From the IMG/VR virus record IMGVR_UViG_3300032285_001165, positions 1 to 32,530 of that record: DNA of 32,530 nucleotides. The stretch is one strand, 5' to 3'. Position numbers and translations under genes: made by a program. The DNA comes from a virus (Duplodnaviria > Caudoviricetes). Positions within the stretch are counted from its first letter, which is position 1. Every line of letters starts with the position of its first letter. Of the stretch, positions 7,736-29,445 are shown in pieces. The notes below the pieces were generated by a model. It searched no databases. It was given only the letters and a program-made list of their open reading frames with translations, and had not been told where the DNA came from.

Positions 7736-8698
7736 ATGGCTGACCCAAAAGAAGATAACCGCACGGACGAAGAAAAAGAAGCTGACCGTGAAGCGGAAGC
7801 GTATTTCAAAGAATTGCACGGTGATAAAACTGGCAATCTTTATGACACCGTAAGCACTCCTTCAGAAGCAGAGAAGATCGAAGCCCAGAAAAAAGCCAAA
7901 GAAATTCCCAAGTCTGAAGTTGCTACTGTGGCAGGTGGGGCGGCTACGGGCGCATACCTGACTCATAAGGATGCGATTCGCAACGCTGGCAAAAACTTCT
8001 TGACCCCTGCTGAAGGCGTGTACGCACCCAAAGCACCTACTGCTGGTGTTCCTTCTGCACTTCTTGATGCCGAGCACATTGGTGCTCATGTGGACGACTA
8101 TGACACAATGGTCGAGAGAATGATGCAAAGCATCCGTGACGAAAAGAACAAACCTACTGGTCGCCAGATGGAAAGCGCACACAACTGGGAATCCAATCGT
8201 CAAGCGTTGGAGCGTGAAGCGCACATGAAGCAACCCGGTGCAAAGCAGGTGATCATCAATGCAGGCCCACAGACACCGACTCGTGGTGGTATTGCGGTGC
8301 CACAGCATGTAGCGGCTCAGGCTGAAGAGGACGCACTGCGTCGTGAAGCACAGAAGCGTGTAGCTGAACAGACAATCCAGCGGGAAAAGGAAGCCGCTCA
8401 ACTCGCCAAGCAACAAGCGGAAGCAAAGGTGGCTCAACGGGCTGGCATTCGCTCTGGTGTAGGCAAGGTAGGTATCGGTGCCTTAGGTGGCGCTCTGGGT
8501 GCCAAAGACCTCTACGATGTGTACGACAAGTACAGCAAGAACCAACCCCTGAACGAGGAAGACTACCTCAAGATGGTGGGTGGTTTAGGTGGTCTTGTCG
8601 CCACTATTCCAACACCAGTCACTGAGGCAATCGGTCTCGGTCTGTCAGGTGGAGCATTAGCTTACCCCTACGCTAAGAAGGCGCTGGGGTACAAATAA
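7736..8698 (+). CDS. Putative internal virion protein, last gene of late operon
   Basis: 320 aa, AGGAGG RBS, coiled coil and Gly/Ala-rich hydrophobic C-terminus. Confidence 0.6.
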   Translation: MADPKEDNRTDEEKEADREAEAYFKELHGDKTGNLYDTVSTPSEAEKIEAQKKAKEIPKSEVATVAGGAATGAYLTHKDAIRNAGKNFLTPAEGVYAPKAPTAGVPSALLDAEHIGAHVDDYDTMVERMMQSIRDEKNKPTGRQMESAHNWESNRQALEREAHMKQPGAKQVIINAGPQTPTRGGIAVPQHVAAQAEEDALRREAQKRVAEQTIQREKEAAQLAKQQAEAKVAQRAGIRSGVGKVGIGALGGALGAKDLYDVYDKYSKNQPLNEEDYLKMVGGLGGLVATIPTPVTEAIGLGLSGGALAYPYAKKALGYK

Positions 8699-8778
8699 AT
8701 TCGTGATGTCATCTCCGTCATGAATGGCCTTGCAGTGGCCCTTCGCCCCCTCTGCTTCCCTCAGAGGGGGTTTTTTTT
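8699..8778 (+). ncRNA. Candidate 3'-UTR-derived small regulatory RNA (three hairpins)
   Basis: Stems 8699-8708/8716-8725 (loop TCATCTC), 8726-8729/8737-8740 (loop TTGCAGT) and the terminator stem. Loops are complementary to early-gene leaders. Confidence 0.5.
8745..8778 (+). terminator. Rho-independent terminator between convergent operons
   Basis: CCCCCTCTG/CAGAGGGGG 9-bp stem followed by T8. Confidence 0.9.
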
Positions 8779-12687: not shown

Positions 12688-12718
12688 TATAACACGAAAT
12701 TTGATTCTGTGTTAGACT
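12688..12718. promoter_or_regulatory. Divergent promoter/operator region with two overlapping motif-C sites
   Basis: TATAACACGAAATTTGA (12688-12704) and TTTGATTCTGTGTTAGA (12700-12716), -10-like TAGACT at 12713-12718, between divergent operons. Confidence 0.6.
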
Positions 12719-12739: not shown

Positions 12740-12940
12740 ATGAACTTAAAACAGTACTTTAAAGACGAACCCTACGGGGCGAAGAAAGAGATGGCAGAGT
12801 ATCTGGGAATCACACCGACATGGTTGGGATTGCTGATACGAAAAGCTAGACGACCTTCCCCTGAGCTGGCGAAGCAAATCGAGAAAGCAACACAAGGATT
12901 GGTAAAAGCACGAGAATTGCGCCCCGATTTGTTTGATTAA
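12740..12940 (+). CDS. Cro/YdaS-like HTH regulator
   Basis: 66 aa, EMAEYLGITPTWL...PSPELAKQIEKATQGLVKARELRPDLF. Confidence 0.85.
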   Translation: MNLKQYFKDEPYGAKKEMAEYLGITPTWLGLLIRKARRPSPELAKQIEKATQGLVKARELRPDLFD

Positions 12941-12966
12941 CCCACTGCAATTAACTGGAGATGTAA

Positions 12967-13752
12967 ATGAAGAAAGTAAAGCTTGATGCCATCAGAATCG
13001 ATGGCGGGACGCAGTGCCGACTGGTGATTGACCAGCCCACCGTGTACAACTACTTGGAGGCGATGAAAGAGGGTGACGAGTTCCCTTTGCTGGAGACAGT
13101 ATTTGACGGATCGACTCACTGGCTCACAGACGGGTTCCACCGTTATCACGCCTACAAGTTGTTGGGGATCAAGGACATCGAGGTCAAGTACAAGCCCGGT
13201 ACTTTGCAAGACGCACAAGTGGAAGCACTCAAAGCGAACAGCAAGCACGGCAAACCCCTGACCAACGACGACAAGCGCAACAAGGTCGAGATGGCTTTGA
13301 AGATTGAAGGGTTCGCTGACAAGTCGAACTACGAGATCGCCAAGCTCTGCCAAGTATCTCAACCGTTTGTCGCTTCTGTGCGTGATCCTGCCAAGAAGGA
13401 AAAACAAGCTCAGGACAAGATCAAGCACGCTAAAAAGAAGGCGCAAGAGGATACTAATCAGATTAGTAGTACAGAAACAACACCTAGGGAAAATCCCTAC
13501 GCAGGTGAAGCTCCTTCAGATGAGGAAATCAAAGCTTCTGAGCTGGCGATGCAAGCGGATCAGGATGCGATGTACAAGCTATTGGAGTCGGACGAACCAC
13601 TCAAGGTGGCTCACGAAGAGATCAAGAAGCTCAACCACCTCAACGCTCAACTTGAAGTCCGACTGCACGGATTGATGAACGAGAAGAACGAAGCGGTGAA
13701 GATGGTAAAGAAACTGCAAAAAGAAAACGACAAACTCAAAGGTAAAAAATGA
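12967..13752 (+). CDS. ParB/Srx N-terminal domain protein with HTH and coiled coil
   Basis: LTDGFHRY (ParB GxxR-type box), SNYEIAKLCQVSQPFV HTH, C-terminal heptads. Confidence 0.75.
   Translation: MKKVKLDAIRIDGGTQCRLVIDQPTVYNYLEAMKEGDEFPLLETVFDGSTHWLTDGFHRYHAYKLLGIKDIEVKYKPGTLQDAQVEALKANSKHGKPLTNDDKRNKVEMALKIEGFADKSNYEIAKLCQVSQPFVASVRDPAKKEKQAQDKIKHAKKKAQEDTNQISSTETTPRENPYAGEAPSDEEIKASELAMQADQDAMYKLLESDEPLKVAHEEIKKLNHLNAQLEVRLHGLMNEKNEAVKMVKKLQKENDKLKGKK
13452..13499. promoter_or_regulatory. Palindrome A (13452-13468) plus palindrome B TAGGGAAAATCCCTA (13485-13499) inside the ParB-like gene
   Basis: Direct read. Confidence 0.7.
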
Positions 13753-16522: not shown

Positions 16523-16544
16523 CCAGATGTAGAATACGCACACG

Positions 16545-16659
16545 ACAGGAGTTGGAAGCCCTGTTGAAAAACCGTTAAGTCAGACTCCGACCCCGAAAGG
16601 GGACTGTATGCGTCACAAGCGTATACGCTTCCAACGGGGTCTGTCTTAACGGTTTTTTT
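16545..16659 (+). ncRNA. C4-like antisense RNA with upstream complementary target loop
   Basis: Long stem 16567-16589/16635-16657, inner CCCC-GAAA-GGGG and GTATGCG/CGTATAC hairpins, GCTTCCAAC (16627-16635) complementary to GTTGGAAGC (16551-16559). Confidence 0.65.
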
Positions 16660-16860
16660 ATTTCCCGCTGTACTGGTCGCTCACCTGCGGTAGCGGTACG
16701 GGGATAGTCTTGCTATGGGATAGATGCTGAGATAGGACAAGGGGTGGCGAAGATAGTGCCCCTGCATCGAACGACTGTCGGGTCAAGTGGCTCCAATCGG
16801 CAGAACTTGTGAAGGCTTATCCCTTATAGGAGGGCTAGGTCTGTCCACCAAACGGCAGTG

Positions 16861-19698: not shown

Positions 19699-19796
19699 GG
19701 TAAGTCCCTAGAAAATAATTGCAAATATTTTCAAAAAAGGCTTGCAAGACTCTAATTTTCAGTTATCATTCTCCTCACTGCAATGTCGCAGGTTTA
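19677..19796 (+). promoter_or_regulatory. Early promoter with palindrome A, palindrome B, motif C and leader hairpin
   Basis: A 19677-19693, B 19696-19710, -35 TTGCAA 19742, -10 TATCAT 19764, motif C 19751-19767, leader 19776-19796. Confidence 0.75.
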
Positions 19797-19810
19797 TTTA
19801 GGAGATCAAC

Positions 19811-22635: not shown

Positions 22636-23487
22636 ATGACACATCCTTTTGAAAAAGCAAAACTCGGTAAGGCACCTTTCTCATGCACCCATGTGACTGA
22701 GAATGTATGGGACAACGGTGATGGCACCACAAAGGCTGGCGGTGTCTGCGATTACTGCGGTACAGGCATCCGTTGGGAATTCTGGATCAAGGGCTCTATC
22801 GCTGGCGCACGCCAGTTCAAGGTCGGTTGCGATTGCGTCGCCAAGACTGGCTGGGGTATCGAAGGCTTTGAGAAAGTTCGTGCCGATCATGTTCGTGCAC
22901 GCAGACAAGCTGGCGCACAAAAGCGTCGTGAGTCCCGCAAAGCTCAAATGGAAGCAGAGCGCCTCCAGCGTACCGCACAACGCATTGAAGCTACCCAAGC
23001 ATGGCGTGATCAAAACAGCGCCTTGGTGACCCGTCTACAGGCTTACGAAGGCACAAATGACTTCTTGCACAGCATGGCTCACAACTTAGCTCAGTGGGGT
23101 AACCTGACTGCACGCCAACAAGAAGCTGTCGAGTCTTGCTTTGCGGTGATCGACCGTCTTGAGCTTGCACGAGCTAACAGCCAGCACATTGGCGCTGTGG
23201 GTGACAAGCTCACCTTTAACATCACTGTTGAGCGCATCATCGTGCTCGAAAGCATCTACGGCACCAACTTCATCACCATTGCTAATGATGAGCATGGCAA
23301 CGCCATCACTTACAAAGGTCGTTCCAATATTGGCAACAAGGGTGATACTGTCACCATCAAAGCCAGCGTGAAAGAGCACACCGAGTACAACGGTGTCAAA
23401 CAAACAGTTGTACAGCGCCCAAAAAAAGTATTGACGCCAGAATCTAACCCTGTGTTAGAATCTAACCACTGCAATGAGCAGGTTTAA
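22636..23487 (+). CDS. Zn-finger plus C-terminal OB-fold-like protein
   Basis: CDYC...VGCDC, then HIGAVGDK...KASVKEHTEYNGVKQTVVQRPK. Confidence 0.7.
   Translation: MTHPFEKAKLGKAPFSCTHVTENVWDNGDGTTKAGGVCDYCGTGIRWEFWIKGSIAGARQFKVGCDCVAKTGWGIEGFEKVRADHVRARRQAGAQKRRESRKAQMEAERLQRTAQRIEATQAWRDQNSALVTRLQAYEGTNDFLHSMAHNLAQWGNLTARQQEAVESCFAVIDRLELARANSQHIGAVGDKLTFNITVERIIVLESIYGTNFITIANDEHGNAITYKGRSNIGNKGDTVTIKASVKEHTEYNGVKQTVVQRPKKVLTPESNPVLESNHCNEQV
23431..23486 (+). promoter_or_regulatory. Promoter with motif C and leader hairpin
   Basis: TTGACG 23431, TAGAAT 23456 (19-bp spacer), motif C 23443-23459, leader 23467-23486. Confidence 0.6.
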
Positions 23488-23502
23488 AACTAGGAGTTAG
23501 AG

Positions 23503-23757
23503 ATGAAACGCACATACATCAAAGCATTCAACGCCCTCAAGAAGCTGGGGGTTCCCGTCTACGAGCACGCAGACGACAATGGGAACTTCAGCATCAGTGC
23601 AGAAGAACCTGAGAGCCACAAGTGGGTGAATTACTATGCAGAGTACCCTTACTGGAAGGGTCACAAGGAAAACCCCGTCTTGAACAACTTGTTGCACAAG
23701 TACGGACTTTTTGCTGAATGGGTGAACTGTGGTCGCCTGTCAGTCTACGAAGCATAA
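23503..23757 (+). CDS. Hypothetical protein
   Basis: 84 aa, AGGAG RBS. Confidence 0.8.
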   Translation: MKRTYIKAFNALKKLGVPVYEHADDNGNFSISAEEPESHKWVNYYAEYPYWKGHKENPVLNNLLHKYGLFAEWVNCGRLSVYEA

Positions 23758-26925: not shown

Positions 26926-29445
26926 ATGAAGAAAAAGCCCTCCACCAAACAGATGCGACAGGAACTTCGTCAGAAGGGCTTGGATGCATTCTTGAAGGAT
27001 AGCAAGATCAAAGAGCGTTTGTATCACGCTACCCCAGCTAACTTCAAAGAGTTCAAACCCGGTGGGAAAGACCCAACCATGAGCGGTAAAGCGATATGGA
27101 TGTCGATGGATCCTGAGAGACAACCCGCCGCGCACAACATCCACAACTACTTTGGCAAAGAACCGTACAAAGAGGGCGTGCATGTCATGCCCTTGCATGT
27201 CCAAGCCAAGAATCCAATGGTGCTTGATGACAAGACCATGATCGAGTGGGCGAGAGAAGCATTCGCTGGTGGAAGCAAAGAGTTCCCAGAACTGTTGACT
27301 CCTGAATGGATCGACGCAGTCAGGAAAGAAGGATATGACAGCATCCACTTTGCCGATCCCTATGACCATGGCGATCCACACGAAGTGATCATGTTTGAAC
27401 CCCATAAGATCAAATCAGCCATCGGCAACCGTGGTACATACGACACAACTAAGAAAGACATCACCAAGGCAAGCGGTGGTGAAGTGTCTGTTGATCAGAT
27501 GCGTCACGAGCTGGTGATGAAAGGACATAGACTCCACCCAGTACGGCACGAAGCCAAAGGTGGAAGCGCCAAAGAGCCCAAGAGCACCGTGAAGGCGTAC
27601 AAGCTGTTCCGTGTGCATGAGAAGCATCCGGGCAAGTTGTTCCCTCTCTTCGTCGATGCCAACACCCCAGTCGAGATGGGCAAGTGGATCGATGCCAAAT
27701 CGGGAGAGATGAAGGGTGACAAGGTAAAGAGCAAGATTGGCCCATTGGCGTATAGACCGGGCTGGCACGCAGGTGATGTACCCGTCGCCACTCACATCGG
27801 TGAGAAGTCCGACCCAGCAAACATGGTGGACATGCCACCAGACACTCGTCCCCATAATCATGTGTGGGCTGAGATCGAGATGCCCAACGATGTCGATTGG
27901 CAGTCCGTCGCCAACGAGCGTGGTATGAACGCCAAGGGCAAGCTCATCGCACGCAACGCACACATCACTGACCAGATACCCAAGGGCGGTCACTACCGAT
28001 ACAAGACCAACTCCAACATGACTGGTAACTGGCTCATTGGTGGATCGATGAAGGTCAACCGCATACTGGGTGACAAAGAGGTCGAGCGCATCAATAAGAA
28101 GGCAGGCGTAGCAGATCTACCTCGTGCCCAACCGTTCAATAAAAAAGCATTCGGACTGGCTTCTGGTGGTGGTGTCGGTGGCATCGCTCCTGAGGAATGG
28201 GTCGCTGAAGAGCATGTAAACCATCTCATATCAGATGGCGCACTCAAGATGTCTAAGGGTGGAAGCATGGCAGAGCTCATGCACCACATACGAGAGATTG
28301 AAGGCAAGTATGGTGCCGATCGCCTACAGCGTGCACTGGACGAGATCCCCAACCTAGAGCACATGTTCGACTACGACGCATTGCGTCAGGCATTCAGTGG
28401 TGACAACGCTAAAGCGCTCATGACCATGAACCCTGCTGACTTTGAGAAGTATGCAACGCAGTTGAAGGGAAACCAAACAACAGGCGCACACACACCTAGT
28501 CTGGAAGAAAGAATCAAAGGGCACAAGGCACATAAGACCGACCTGTCAACAGAAGACTATGTCAAGTACCTGCAACAAATTAACAAGTTCAGAGACATCC
28601 CGTTTCTACAGATTGACAAGGAAGAGGTGGGCTTACCACTGACTCCGTTTATCTCTGGGCACGAAGGTCGTCACCGTAGCAGGTCGATGGCAGGTCGTGG
28701 CGTGGATAAGAGTCTAGTGATCCTTCACCCCCGCTCAGAATTGCGTGAACCCTTCCCTCGTCGTTACCGTGACGAGTACATTGACGCATTGAAGAAAGAG
28801 CTGGAGATGACCAACAACATGGTCAAGCCTCAGCAAGACAAGTCGAACCCACGCCCAGCGATCAAGATGCCTGACATCTATGCATCAGGTGGTGATGTGC
28901 ACCCCATGGGGATCAATGTCAAGACCGACAAGAAAGCTGGGCTTAGATATGCTGACCTGATTGTGGATGGACACAAGAAATTTGAAAGCCGTAATGGTGA
29001 CACCTTGCGTCCCTATGTGGGCAAGCGTGTAGCAATCGTCAGGACGGGCGAGGGCCCTGCCAAAGCAATCGGTGAGGTCACAGTCGGTGATCCTATGGTT
29101 GTCAACCGTAGGCAGTTCCGATCAATGGAGAGGCATCACCTAGTCCCAGAGGGTTCAGCGTTTGACATCCAGACAGAGACCAAGCACTTGTACCCAATGC
29201 ACAACCCTGTGAGATATGAGAAAGAGCGTGATGTCGGGCATGGCATCGTTGCACGCAAAGTTATCCACAAACAAACAGGTGGTGGCATTCCACCTGCTAC
29301 ACGATTAGCACTGGACGCACTGAGAGCACAAGCTCAAGCACGAGCACAACTCATGGATCAATACAACAAAGACACGGCAGGGATGTACACACATCAGATG
29401 CCGTCCTTCCAACAATGGTTGGCACAGCGCCAGCAAACAAACTAG
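26926..29445 (+). CDS. Multidomain polyvalent-type protein: ADP-ribosyltransferase-like, unknown domain, ParB/Srx-like and ASCH
   Basis: LYHAT...KNP...GYDSI...EVIMFEPHKIKSAIGN (ART-PolyVal pattern), GHEGRHR, YADLIVDGHKKFESR (ASCH pattern). Confidence 0.7.
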   Translation: MKKKPSTKQMRQELRQKGLDAFLKDSKIKERLYHATPANFKEFKPGGKDPTMSGKAIWMSMDPERQPAAHNIHNYFGKEPYKEGVHVMPLHVQAKNPMVLDDKTMIEWAREAFAGGSKEFPELLTPEWIDAVRKEGYDSIHFADPYDHGDPHEVIMFEPHKIKSAIGNRGTYDTTKKDITKASGGEVSVDQMRHELVMKGHRLHPVRHEAKGGSAKEPKSTVKAYKLFRVHEKHPGKLFPLFVDANTPVEMGKWIDAKSGEMKGDKVKSKIGPLAYRPGWHAGDVPVATHIGEKSDPANMVDMPPDTRPHNHVWAEIEMPNDVDWQSVANERGMNAKGKLIARNAHITDQIPKGGHYRYKTNSNMTGNWLIGGSMKVNRILGDKEVERINKKAGVADLPRAQPFNKKAFGLASGGGVGGIAPEEWVAEEHVNHLISDGALKMSKGGSMAELMHHIREIEGKYGADRLQRALDEIPNLEHMFDYDALRQAFSGDNAKALMTMNPADFEKYATQLKGNQTTGAHTPSLEERIKGHKAHKTDLSTEDYVKYLQQINKFRDIPFLQIDKEEVGLPLTPFISGHEGRHRSRSMAGRGVDKSLVILHPRSELREPFPRRYRDEYIDALKKELEMTNNMVKPQQDKSNPRPAIKMPDIYASGGDVHPMGINVKTDKKAGLRYADLIVDGHKKFESRNGDTLRPYVGKRVAIVRTGEGPAKAIGEVTVGDPMVVNRRQFRSMERHHLVPEGSAFDIQTETKHLYPMHNPVRYEKERDVGHGIVARKVIHKQTGGGIPPATRLALDALRAQAQARAQLMDQYNKDTAGMYTHQMPSFQQWLAQRQQTN

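What the first reader, a model, noticed from the sequence alone, without database searches (positions are those of the whole stretch)
8699..8778. Three-hairpin RNA at the end of the late operon with loops antisense to early-gene leaders
Seen: hairpin 1 exposes TCATCTC(C) (8709-8716), hairpin 2 exposes TTGCAGT(GG) (8730-8738), and the terminator follows. Their complements occur in the correct antiparallel order in three leaders. ParB-like gene: CCACTGCAA 12942-12950 and GGAGATG 12957-12963. Gene 19811: CACTGCAA 19776-19783 and GGAGAT 19801-19806. Gene 23503: CCACTGCAA 23466-23474 and GAGATGA 23500-23506. An 8-mer is expected about 0.5 times per strand in this window under uniform composition, and the three copies I found all sit within about 40 nt of a start codon. 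Inference: a trans-acting two-loop sRNA from the late transcript blocks early RBSs, acting as an early-to-late switch.
Basis: partly seen in the sequence, partly recalled or inferred. Interest (0 to 1): 0.8.

Follow-up and report, generated by a model that had tools for sequence, protein, structure and literature searches.

The report
Phage tail-end RNA targets replication gene
The end of this freshwater phage's late gene block carries a conserved three-hairpin RNA whose two loops match, and change together with, two short sites in front of the phage's first replication gene, so it likely works as an RNA brake that would turn replication genes down late in infection.

Summary
All coordinates check out. 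The element (8699-8778) is a conserved plus-strand RNA: 42 distinct homologues, 16 of 18 pairs with compensatory changes, loop cores RUCUC (42/42) and GCAGU (37/42), no Rfam family. It begins at the last late gene's stop codon and ends in a terminator.

Where loop 2 reads GCAGUU and cro leads straight into parB, cro codons E58-L59-R60 read GAACTGCG in 26 of 26 junctions (classes drawn post hoc). It occurs in 1 of 41 without loop 2 and 0 of 10 other GCAGUU carriers. Where the loop reads GCAGUG (this window), CACTGCAA appears instead (4 of 5). Loop 1 fits the parB Shine-Dalgarno (GGAGAY 32/39 versus 10/27). The other two sites are copies of a promoter cassette that persists without the RNA: at most secondary targets.

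Likely mechanism: two-loop antisense repression of the ParB-like gene and its coupled helicase. Expression, a discrete RNA and repression are untested. Tree-independent contrasts are few (4 of 4, p=0.125).

The parts
8699..8725 (+). Hairpin P1; loop 1 UCAUCUC (8709-8715), an anti-Shine-Dalgarno-type seed
   Evidence: Fold; 8 of 8 pairs with compensatory changes in 42 homologues; core RUCUC in 42 of 42 rows
8726..8740 (+). Hairpin P2, abutting P1; loop 2 UUGCAGU (8730-8736)
   Evidence: Fold; 3 of 4 pairs with compensatory changes; GCAGU in 37 of 42 rows
8741..8778 (+). Pyrimidine linker, terminator hairpin (8745-8771) and U tract; U tract on the plus strand only
   Evidence: 5 of 6 pairs with compensatory changes
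7736..8698 (+). Last gene of the late (virion protein) operon; its stop codon lies one base before P1, so the RNA is the operon's 3' UTR
   Evidence: upstream genes hit virion structural and DNA ejection PHROGs; this gene has no family hit
12740..12940 (+). Cro/YdaS-like HTH gene heading the rightward operon
   Evidence: phrog_35; PF15943, E 5e-10
12914..12922 (+). cro codons E58-L59-R60: the loop-2 site in most relatives (GAA CTG CGN); in this window it reads GAA TTG CGC and the site lies behind the stop codon instead
12942..12950 (+). Predicted target site A, CCACTGCAA, complement of loop 2 and its closing bases
   Evidence: CACTGCAA at the cro end in 4 of 5 GCAGUG-loop phages and 1 of 77 others (row labels)
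12957..12963 (+). Predicted target site B, GGAGATG, the Shine-Dalgarno of the ParB-like gene, complement of loop 1
   Evidence: GGAGAY in 32 of 39 junctions with P1, 10 of 27 without; background 34%
12967..13752 (+). ParB-like gene, predicted main target
   Evidence: phrog_1033, E 2e-14; no Pfam hit; ranks 1 of 41 starts in this genome
13749..15278 (+). SF2 helicase; its start overlaps the ParB-like stop (ATGA), so translational coupling is likely
19751..19810 (+). Early promoter cassette (operator-like TCTAA-N7-TTA in the -35/-10 spacer, leader hairpin ACTGC..GCAG from 19777, SD GGAGAT 19801); possible secondary target
23443..23506 (+). Second copy of the promoter cassette (leader hairpin from 23468); possible secondary target

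Best explanation
This is a conserved three-hairpin RNA in the 3' untranslated end of the phage's late operon that likely acts in trans as a two-loop antisense RNA and is predicted to repress translation of the ParB-like gene behind cro. Loop 2 would pair with a site at the end of cro (inside codons E58-L59-R60 in most relatives, just behind the stop codon here). Loop 1 would pair with the ParB-like gene's Shine-Dalgarno. The overlapping helicase gene would fall with it by translational coupling. The RNA is made only when transcription reaches the end of the virion genes, so it would give delayed negative feedback on the head of the replication operon. Shown: structure, conservation, position, and the joint occurrence and joint change of loops and sites. 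Inferred: pairing in the cell, release as a short RNA, repression as the outcome, timing, helicase coupling.
For: Structure: 97% of cells paired, 16 of 18 pairs compensatory, 0 of 500 shuffles, on a model-fitted alignment; 8 of 18 on a plain MAFFT alignment. Site A: GAACTGCG in 26/26 class-A junctions, 1/41 without loop 2, 0/5 GCAGUG class; all GCAGUU loops pooled 26/36 versus 1/46. Leu59 is one of 2 of 58 conserved Leu columns with a single codon, while Arg60 and Pro61 third positions vary; GAACTG is 15% of other E-L pairs in both groups. Class A lies in 6 places on the tree, at least 4 forced by starred branches; 4 of 4 independent A-versus-none pairs agree. Joint change: closing U with target A (GCAGUU/AACUGC) becomes G with C (GCAGUG/CACUGC) in 4 of 5, at two different positions; UCGCAGU loops turn a G.U pair into G-C; matched loop-2/target energies beat permuted ones, p=0.003. 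Site B: GGAGAY 32/39 versus 10/27, p=3e-4, background 34%; CAUCUCC loops face GGAGAUG in both lineages that have them. Genome-wide, the gene after cro ranks first or second in 23 of 30 genomes (1.9 expected), in 4 of 24 genomes without loop 2, and in 3-6 of 30 with loop 2 shuffled. The site does not follow the local spacer hairpin (0 of the 11 no-loop-2 junctions flagged for such a hairpin) and has no cis partner nearby (0 of 30). A record not used before, MW202545.1, fits.
Against: No expression or binding data. Classes were drawn after seeing the data, and 10 other GCAGUU carriers lack the site: 6 have a different arrangement behind cro, while L064 (wobble only), L249, L234 and G020 have parB right behind cro. 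A further new member, L354, also lacks it. Independent contrasts are too few for significance (p=0.125; 0.25 with those 10 included), and the tree is FastTree on two flanking genes of mosaic phages. Loop 1 versus own Shine-Dalgarno is not significantly better than permuted (p=0.077); 7 of 39 P1 carriers lack GGAGAY. The GCAGU/ACUGC core is invariant and cannot covary. Seeds are 5-9 bp; using the closing pairs costs about 7 kcal/mol; a double kissing geometry was not modelled. In class A, site A lies in translated cro, where ribosomes could displace the RNA.
Confidence: 0.62

Rival explanations
1. The RNA pairs with the same two sites but the outcome is not plain repression: it would change processing, stability or termination at the small hairpin and U run between cro and parB, uncoupling the two genes.
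For: All the covariation evidence shows pairing, not its sign. Site A lies in cro's coding end, and most class-A junctions have a CCC..GGG hairpin and a U run between the two sites.
Against: Site B covers the GGAG of the Shine-Dalgarno. This window, L001 and L026 lack the spacer hairpin yet keep site A.
Confidence: 0.15
2. One reading: a multi-target switch whose main targets include the ACUGCAA leaders of the strong early promoters.
For: The leaders rank second and third in this genome and often among the top four elsewhere; ACTGCAA in 25/30 leaders where the loop is UUGCAGU versus 16/28 without loop 2, p=0.04; U at loop position 2 is the one base that fits both A (leaders) and G (cro site); one UCGCAGU phage has an ACTGCGA leader (G016).
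Against: The leaders persist without the RNA; loop variants are mostly not followed; ACTGCGA also occurs in phages without loop 2; the motif is one stem variant of a general leader hairpin (ACCAC, ACGGTC, ACTACC); net energies are weaker: -7.8 and -12.2 against -15.0 kcal/mol for parB, same rough method.
Confidence: 0.1
3. A general anti-Shine-Dalgarno RNA aimed at host mRNAs, like the Burkholderia double-hairpin RNAs, or a cis 3' stability element; the link to cro-parB would come from shared descent.
For: Loop 1 is a CU-rich anti-RBS seed like those described in PMC5688073 (passages); the best Rfam scores are anti-hemB, 24.7 and 22.9 bits; P1 survives in phages that lost loop 2; class A genomes are more alike than the rest (20 of 571 versus 2 of 476 invariant codon columns).
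Against: It does not explain the fixed Leu59 codon in separate branches, the U:A to G:C switch with a moved site, or the rank result. Host targets could not be scanned; extra host targets remain open.
Confidence: 0.08
4. Loop 2 is read by a protein or as DNA: a binding site shared with the cro end, or a mimic of a tRNA-Cys (GCA) anticodon stem-loop (5-bp stem, 7-nt loop; tRNA geometry recalled, not tested).
For: The commonest P2 has a 5-bp stem and the loop UUGCAGU.
Against: Loop length and the second U vary (UCGCAGU, UAGCAGU, GCAG); stems keep pairing, not sequence, with many G.U pairs; the likely ParB site is a different palindrome; a mimic would not need a complement in cro.
Confidence: 0.05

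Closest known systems
C4 antisense RNA of phages P1/P7 (Rfam RF01695) and CI RNA of P4
   Same: A structured phage RNA that regulates the phage's own genes by short pairings at two separate sites. CI RNA pairs with seqA and seqC and limits P4 replication genes (PMC4825925, passages). C4 represses the icd-ant operon (PMC8198154, passages). C4's two-site pairing is recalled, not read.
   Different: No Rfam score for C4 here. C4 and CI are cut from the leader of the operon they control and serve lysogenic immunity. This RNA sits at the 3' end of the late operon, 4.2 kb from its target; the target is a ParB-like gene; the complete relative MW202545.1 lists no integrase or CI-type repressor.
Betaproteobacteria toxic sRNA (RF02278, ncS03/05/27/62) and anti-hemB (RF02837)
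   Same: A CU-rich loop complementary to ribosome binding sites, a terminator with U tail, and the same host order (PMC5688073 and PMC4603805, passages). Anti-hemB shares the three-hairpin outline.
   Different: Scores far below gathering: 24.7 and 22.9 against 49.5; 17 against 50. Those are chromosomal, free-standing RNAs with many predicted targets; this one is phage-borne and has a second, non-SD seed.
Lambda OOP RNA and P22 sar RNA
   Same: Control of a phage's own regulator by antisense pairing; OOP acts on cII, the gene behind cro in lambda (gene order recalled), the same position as the target here (PMC12197685, parts 1-2 of 6).
   Different: Those are cis-encoded with long perfect complementarity and their own promoters; this RNA is trans-encoded with two short loop seeds.
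3' UTR-derived Hfq sRNAs of bacteria, and prophage DicF
   Same: Starts at a stop codon, shares the operon's terminator, pyrimidine linker and U tail (class features recalled; DicF from PMC12197685).
   Different: DicF, PreS and VpdS act mainly on host mRNAs; processing and Hfq binding are untested here.

Membership tests
C4 / CI phage antisense RNAs | Score at or above gathering for the Rfam C4 model | tested here: not met
   No C4 hit at gathering in the window, nor among hits to E 10 for the element or for L036
C4 / CI phage antisense RNAs | Pairs with two separate short sites on a phage mRNA | tested here: met
   Met by comparison only; binding not measured
C4 / CI phage antisense RNAs | Encoded in the leader of the operon it controls | tested here: not met
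   Lies behind the last late gene, 4.2 kb from the target
C4 / CI phage antisense RNAs | Immunity factor of a lysogen | tested here: inconclusive
   No integrase or CI among PHROG hits of 50 window proteins (window about 59% complete) or in the annotation of MW202545.1; a plasmid-like prophage state is not excluded
Betaproteobacteria toxic sRNA RF02278 / anti-hemB RF02837 | Score at or above gathering | tested here: not met
   17 against 50 bits; 24.7 and 22.9 against 49.5
Betaproteobacteria toxic sRNA RF02278 / anti-hemB RF02837 | CU-rich unpaired stretch complementary to ribosome binding sites | tested here: met
   RUCUC in 42 of 42 loop-1 rows
Betaproteobacteria toxic sRNA RF02278 / anti-hemB RF02837 | Chromosomal gene of Burkholderiales | tested here: not met
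   One exact-pattern scan of 185,579 genomes gave 4 hits, all short MAG contigs that also carry this phage's genes; divergent chromosomal copies would be missed
3' UTR-derived sRNA | Begins near a stop codon and shares the mRNA's intrinsic terminator | tested here: met
   P1 starts one base after the 7736-8698 stop, and about 8 bases after the last late gene in MW202545.1; the scan found no sigma-70-like promoter here
3' UTR-derived sRNA | Accumulates as a discrete RNA and binds Hfq or ProQ | not testable with these tools
   Needs RNA from infected cells and a pull-down

The most novel reading that the evidence does not exclude
A phage lineage runs its switch from replication to assembly with RNA alone. 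The tail of the late mRNA docks by two loops on the cro-parB junction, at a site written into cro's synonymous codons, and also on the 5' hairpins of the strongest early transcripts, shutting down the replication and early operons together.
Probability: 0.3. Interest if true: 0.85.

Novelty: new variant of a known kind. Interest (0 to 1): 0.7.

Why it matters
The phage RNAs that I found described as controlling a phage's own genes are cis-antisense or immunity RNAs of temperate phages (PMC12197685, parts 1-2 of 6). This would be a trans-acting RNA from the 3' end of the late operon feeding back on the first replication gene in an apparently non-integrating phage. Its target can be read from evolution: a silent-site constraint inside cro that comes and goes with one loop, and a site that moves and changes base when the loop's closing base changes. 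It gives an 80-nt RNA and a 60-nt target that can be tested in a standard two-plasmid reporter without a cultured host. It also shows that silent codons in phage genes can carry RNA target sites.

Tried and rejected
Counting CACTGCAA: not significant alone. Whole-RNA duplex scan without regard to structure: only self hits and GC-rich noise. Rfam: no family at gathering for the element or for three further loci. Covariation of loop 2 with the promoter leaders: not found. A leftward promoter or minus-strand RNA: the minus strand loses P1 and has no U tract. attP or tRNA-end remnant: no integrase seen, loops rather than a core are kept. Sequencing runs: no RNA holder listed, which says nothing on expression. 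The last late gene as anchor found one identical contig only. The cultured relative Acidovorax phage AP1 (helicase 65%) gave no candidate for the RNA model. In one search a regular expression picked wrong loops for L102 and G010, and for L102, L105, L346 and G010; searches use corrected loops. The AACTGC labels included three hits at other codons (L003, L038, L039); one search uses the E-L-R site only. One search used a wrong spacer length, corrected. PDB sequence search gave nothing for the ParB-like protein. Not in print as far as searched: nine full-text searches showed no description of this RNA. In PMC10690425 (10,000 candidate viral RNAs) four of six held supplementary files had no match, but the two zip archives and three large files could not be searched, so the motif may be listed there.

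Full report
Setting. The window is a linear virus record, about 59% complete. A short leftward block (12628-8777: unknown protein, exonuclease, methyltransferases) diverges from a rightward block that opens with a Cro/YdaS-like gene (12740), a ParB-like gene (12967), a helicase and a primase, and runs on through terminase to virion and DNA ejection proteins. The element lies where the late genes end and meet the leftward block. Relatives are 52-57 kb phages. The host is likely Burkholderiales: the only 4 hits in 185,579 prokaryote genomes are Betaproteobacteria or Burkholderiales MAG contigs that carry this phage's genes, and the closest cultured phage infects Paracidovorax.

Observation. All coordinates are right. 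The plus strand folds into P1 (8699-8725), P2 (8726-8740) and a terminator (8745-8778), z -5.6; the minus strand loses P1. The count of CACTGCAA is not unusual by itself (4 found, 2.46 expected, 22 of 100 shuffles). Two of the three leader copies belong to one repeated promoter cassette.

The RNA is real. Loci were gathered with flanking proteins as anchors and with patterns. A covariance model from 16 sequences found 29 matches above 50 bits in 78 sources, 16 of them its own training rows, then a gap to 30 bits; it found 22 of 76 and 9 of 50 in further, partly redundant sources. The window has one copy. On 42 distinct members chosen from these hits, 97% of cells pair and 16 of 18 pairs change on both sides, against 0 of 500 shuffles and much lower values for slid partners. 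That alignment is fitted to the model; a plain MAFFT alignment gave 8 of 18. Loop 1 keeps RUCUC in 42 of 42 rows and loop 2 keeps GCAGU in 37 of 42. Other relatives keep only P1, only P2, or only the terminator, so the loops are separable modules. The element starts at the last late gene's stop codon, and the scan found no promoter there. No Rfam family reaches gathering.

The promoter leaders are not the conserved target. The cassette is an operator-like TCTAA-N7-TTA word in the promoter spacer, then a hairpin at the likely start site, an AU stretch and a Shine-Dalgarno. The hairpin stem comes as ACTGC/GCAG, ACTAC/GTAG, ACCAC/GTGG and others. ACTGC leaders were found in 20 of 26 junction classes with a UUGCAGU loop and 16 of 41 without loop 2. 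ACTGCAA makes up 25 of 30 and 16 of 28 distinct leaders (p=0.04, not tree-corrected). Loops UAGCAGU and AAGCAGU still face ACTGCAA leaders. They remain possible secondary targets.

The cro-parB junction is the conserved target. Of 231 stretches with cro, 107 junctions were distinct. I classed 82 and left out 25: 22 had too little upstream sequence to see the RNA, and three (L082, L182, L211) were short or very divergent; 6 of the 25 carry the site. The classes were drawn after seeing the data. Class A (26): loop GCAGUU and parB right behind cro. Class B (5, with this window): loop GCAGUG. Class O (10): other GCAGUU loops. Class N (41): no loop 2 found; in about ten of these no junction terminator was located either, so absence is less sure. 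GAACTGCG at cro codons E58-L59-R60 is present in 26/26 A, 0/10 O, 0/5 B and 1/41 N; pooled, 26/36 against 1/46. In class A, Leu59 is one of 2 of 58 conserved Leu columns with a single codon and Glu58 one of 6 of 36, while Arg60 and Pro61 vary freely at the third base. GAACTG is 15% of other E-L pairs in both A and N. Class B has CACTGCAA instead in 4 of 5, against 1 of 77 others (a phage with a decayed loop). It lies behind the stop codon in three and inside codons V-T-A-K in L188; the fifth has a wobble version. So the base that closes the loop and the facing target base change together, U:A to G:C. Matched loop-2/target energies beat permuted ones (32 distinct pairs, p=0.003).

Loop 1 fits the parB Shine-Dalgarno: GGAGAY in 32 of 39 junctions with P1 and 10 of 27 without (p=3e-4), against 34% after other GGAGA words. 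The matched-versus-permuted test for loop 1 is not significant (p=0.077). In a scan of all predicted starts, the gene behind cro ranks first or second in 23 of 30 genomes with both loops (1.9 expected), in 4 of 24 scored genomes without loop 2 given majority loops, and in 3-6 of 30 when loop 2 is shuffled.

Descent. On a FastTree tree of two flanking proteins class A needs 6 changes, at least 4 forced. All 4 independent A-versus-N pairs agree, too few for significance (p=0.125; 0.25 with O and B included). Two records seen after the rule was set: MW202545.1 fits; L354 does not. L354 and several O and N phages have a promoter and an attenuator-like cassette between cro and parB. There loop 2 is shortened, closed or lost, as expected if the target context was replaced, though this is an argument after the fact. 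L064, L249, L234 and G020 are plain exceptions.

Mechanism. Most likely the tail of the late transcript, whole or cut free near the stop codon, docks loop 2 on site A and loop 1 on the Shine-Dalgarno and blocks ribosome loading on the ParB-like gene; the helicase start overlaps the parB stop and would follow. A rough sum for this window gives -15.0 kcal/mol for parB, -12.2 for 23503 and -7.8 for 19811 after opening the target. Opening the RNA's two closing pairs would cost a further 7.3, and geometry is not modelled. Shown: structure, position, conservation, joint occurrence and joint change. Inferred: pairing, processing, sign and timing.

Known relatives. It works like C4 and CI RNA (two short pairings on the phage's own mRNA) but fails their membership tests. 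It shares an anti-RBS loop with Burkholderia double-hairpin RNAs and anti-hemB but scores far below their thresholds. Papers seen: passages of PMC4603805, PMC4825925, PMC2864571, PMC8198154 and PMC5688073; parts 1-2 of 6 of PMC12197685; for PMC10690425 the listing, the supplement list and searches in four of six held files. Citron and Schuster 1990 was seen only as a reference entry. Nine searches showed no description of this RNA; the unsearchable supplements of PMC10690425 may hold it as an unnamed candidate.

Verdict. A real, apparently undescribed phage RNA family with comparative evidence for a specific trans target. New variant of a known kind; interest 0.7; confidence in the repression model 0.62, in pairing with the cro-parB junction about 0.8.

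Noticed in passing
window 16540-16665: A large attenuator-like structure (z -7.8) behind a promoter, with GTTGGAAG / CTTCCAAC arms and a terminator. Relatives carry a like cassette with TTGGCGG / CCGCCAA arms between cro and parB. It recalls C4/IsrK-type leaders (recalled); no Rfam hit at gathering.
   Followed up: partly
window 16666-16783: Rfam Betaproteobacteria-1 RNA (RF02932), 102 bits, directly behind that terminator.
   Followed up: no
window 12010, 13452, 19677, 24095, 26633: Five copies of the 17-bp palindrome TACTAATCNGATTAGTA (0.02 expected), one inside the ParB-like gene and one right behind terminase; likely the ParB-like protein's site.
   Followed up: partly
window 16944, 17850, 22149, 23443; looser at 12700 and 19751: Operator-like TCTAA-N7-TTAKA in promoter spacers (0.04 expected), shared by most relatives examined; likely the Cro operator.
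   Followed up: partly
window 17874, 19777, 22175, 23468 and relatives: A family of hairpins at the likely start of early transcripts (AC-stem-loop-stem-GGT) with compensatory stem changes, present with or without the three-hairpin RNA; function open: stability, antitermination or protein binding.
   Followed up: partly
window 26926-29445: An 839-aa protein behind terminase with ART-PolyVal and ASCH domains, a polyvalent-type protein.
   Followed up: no
L143, L250, L252, L050, L246 junctions: Distant versions keep P1 but have a tetraloop-type or unrelated loop on P2; their parB Shine-Dalgarno matches loop 1 by 6-8 Watson-Crick pairs.
   Followed up: partly
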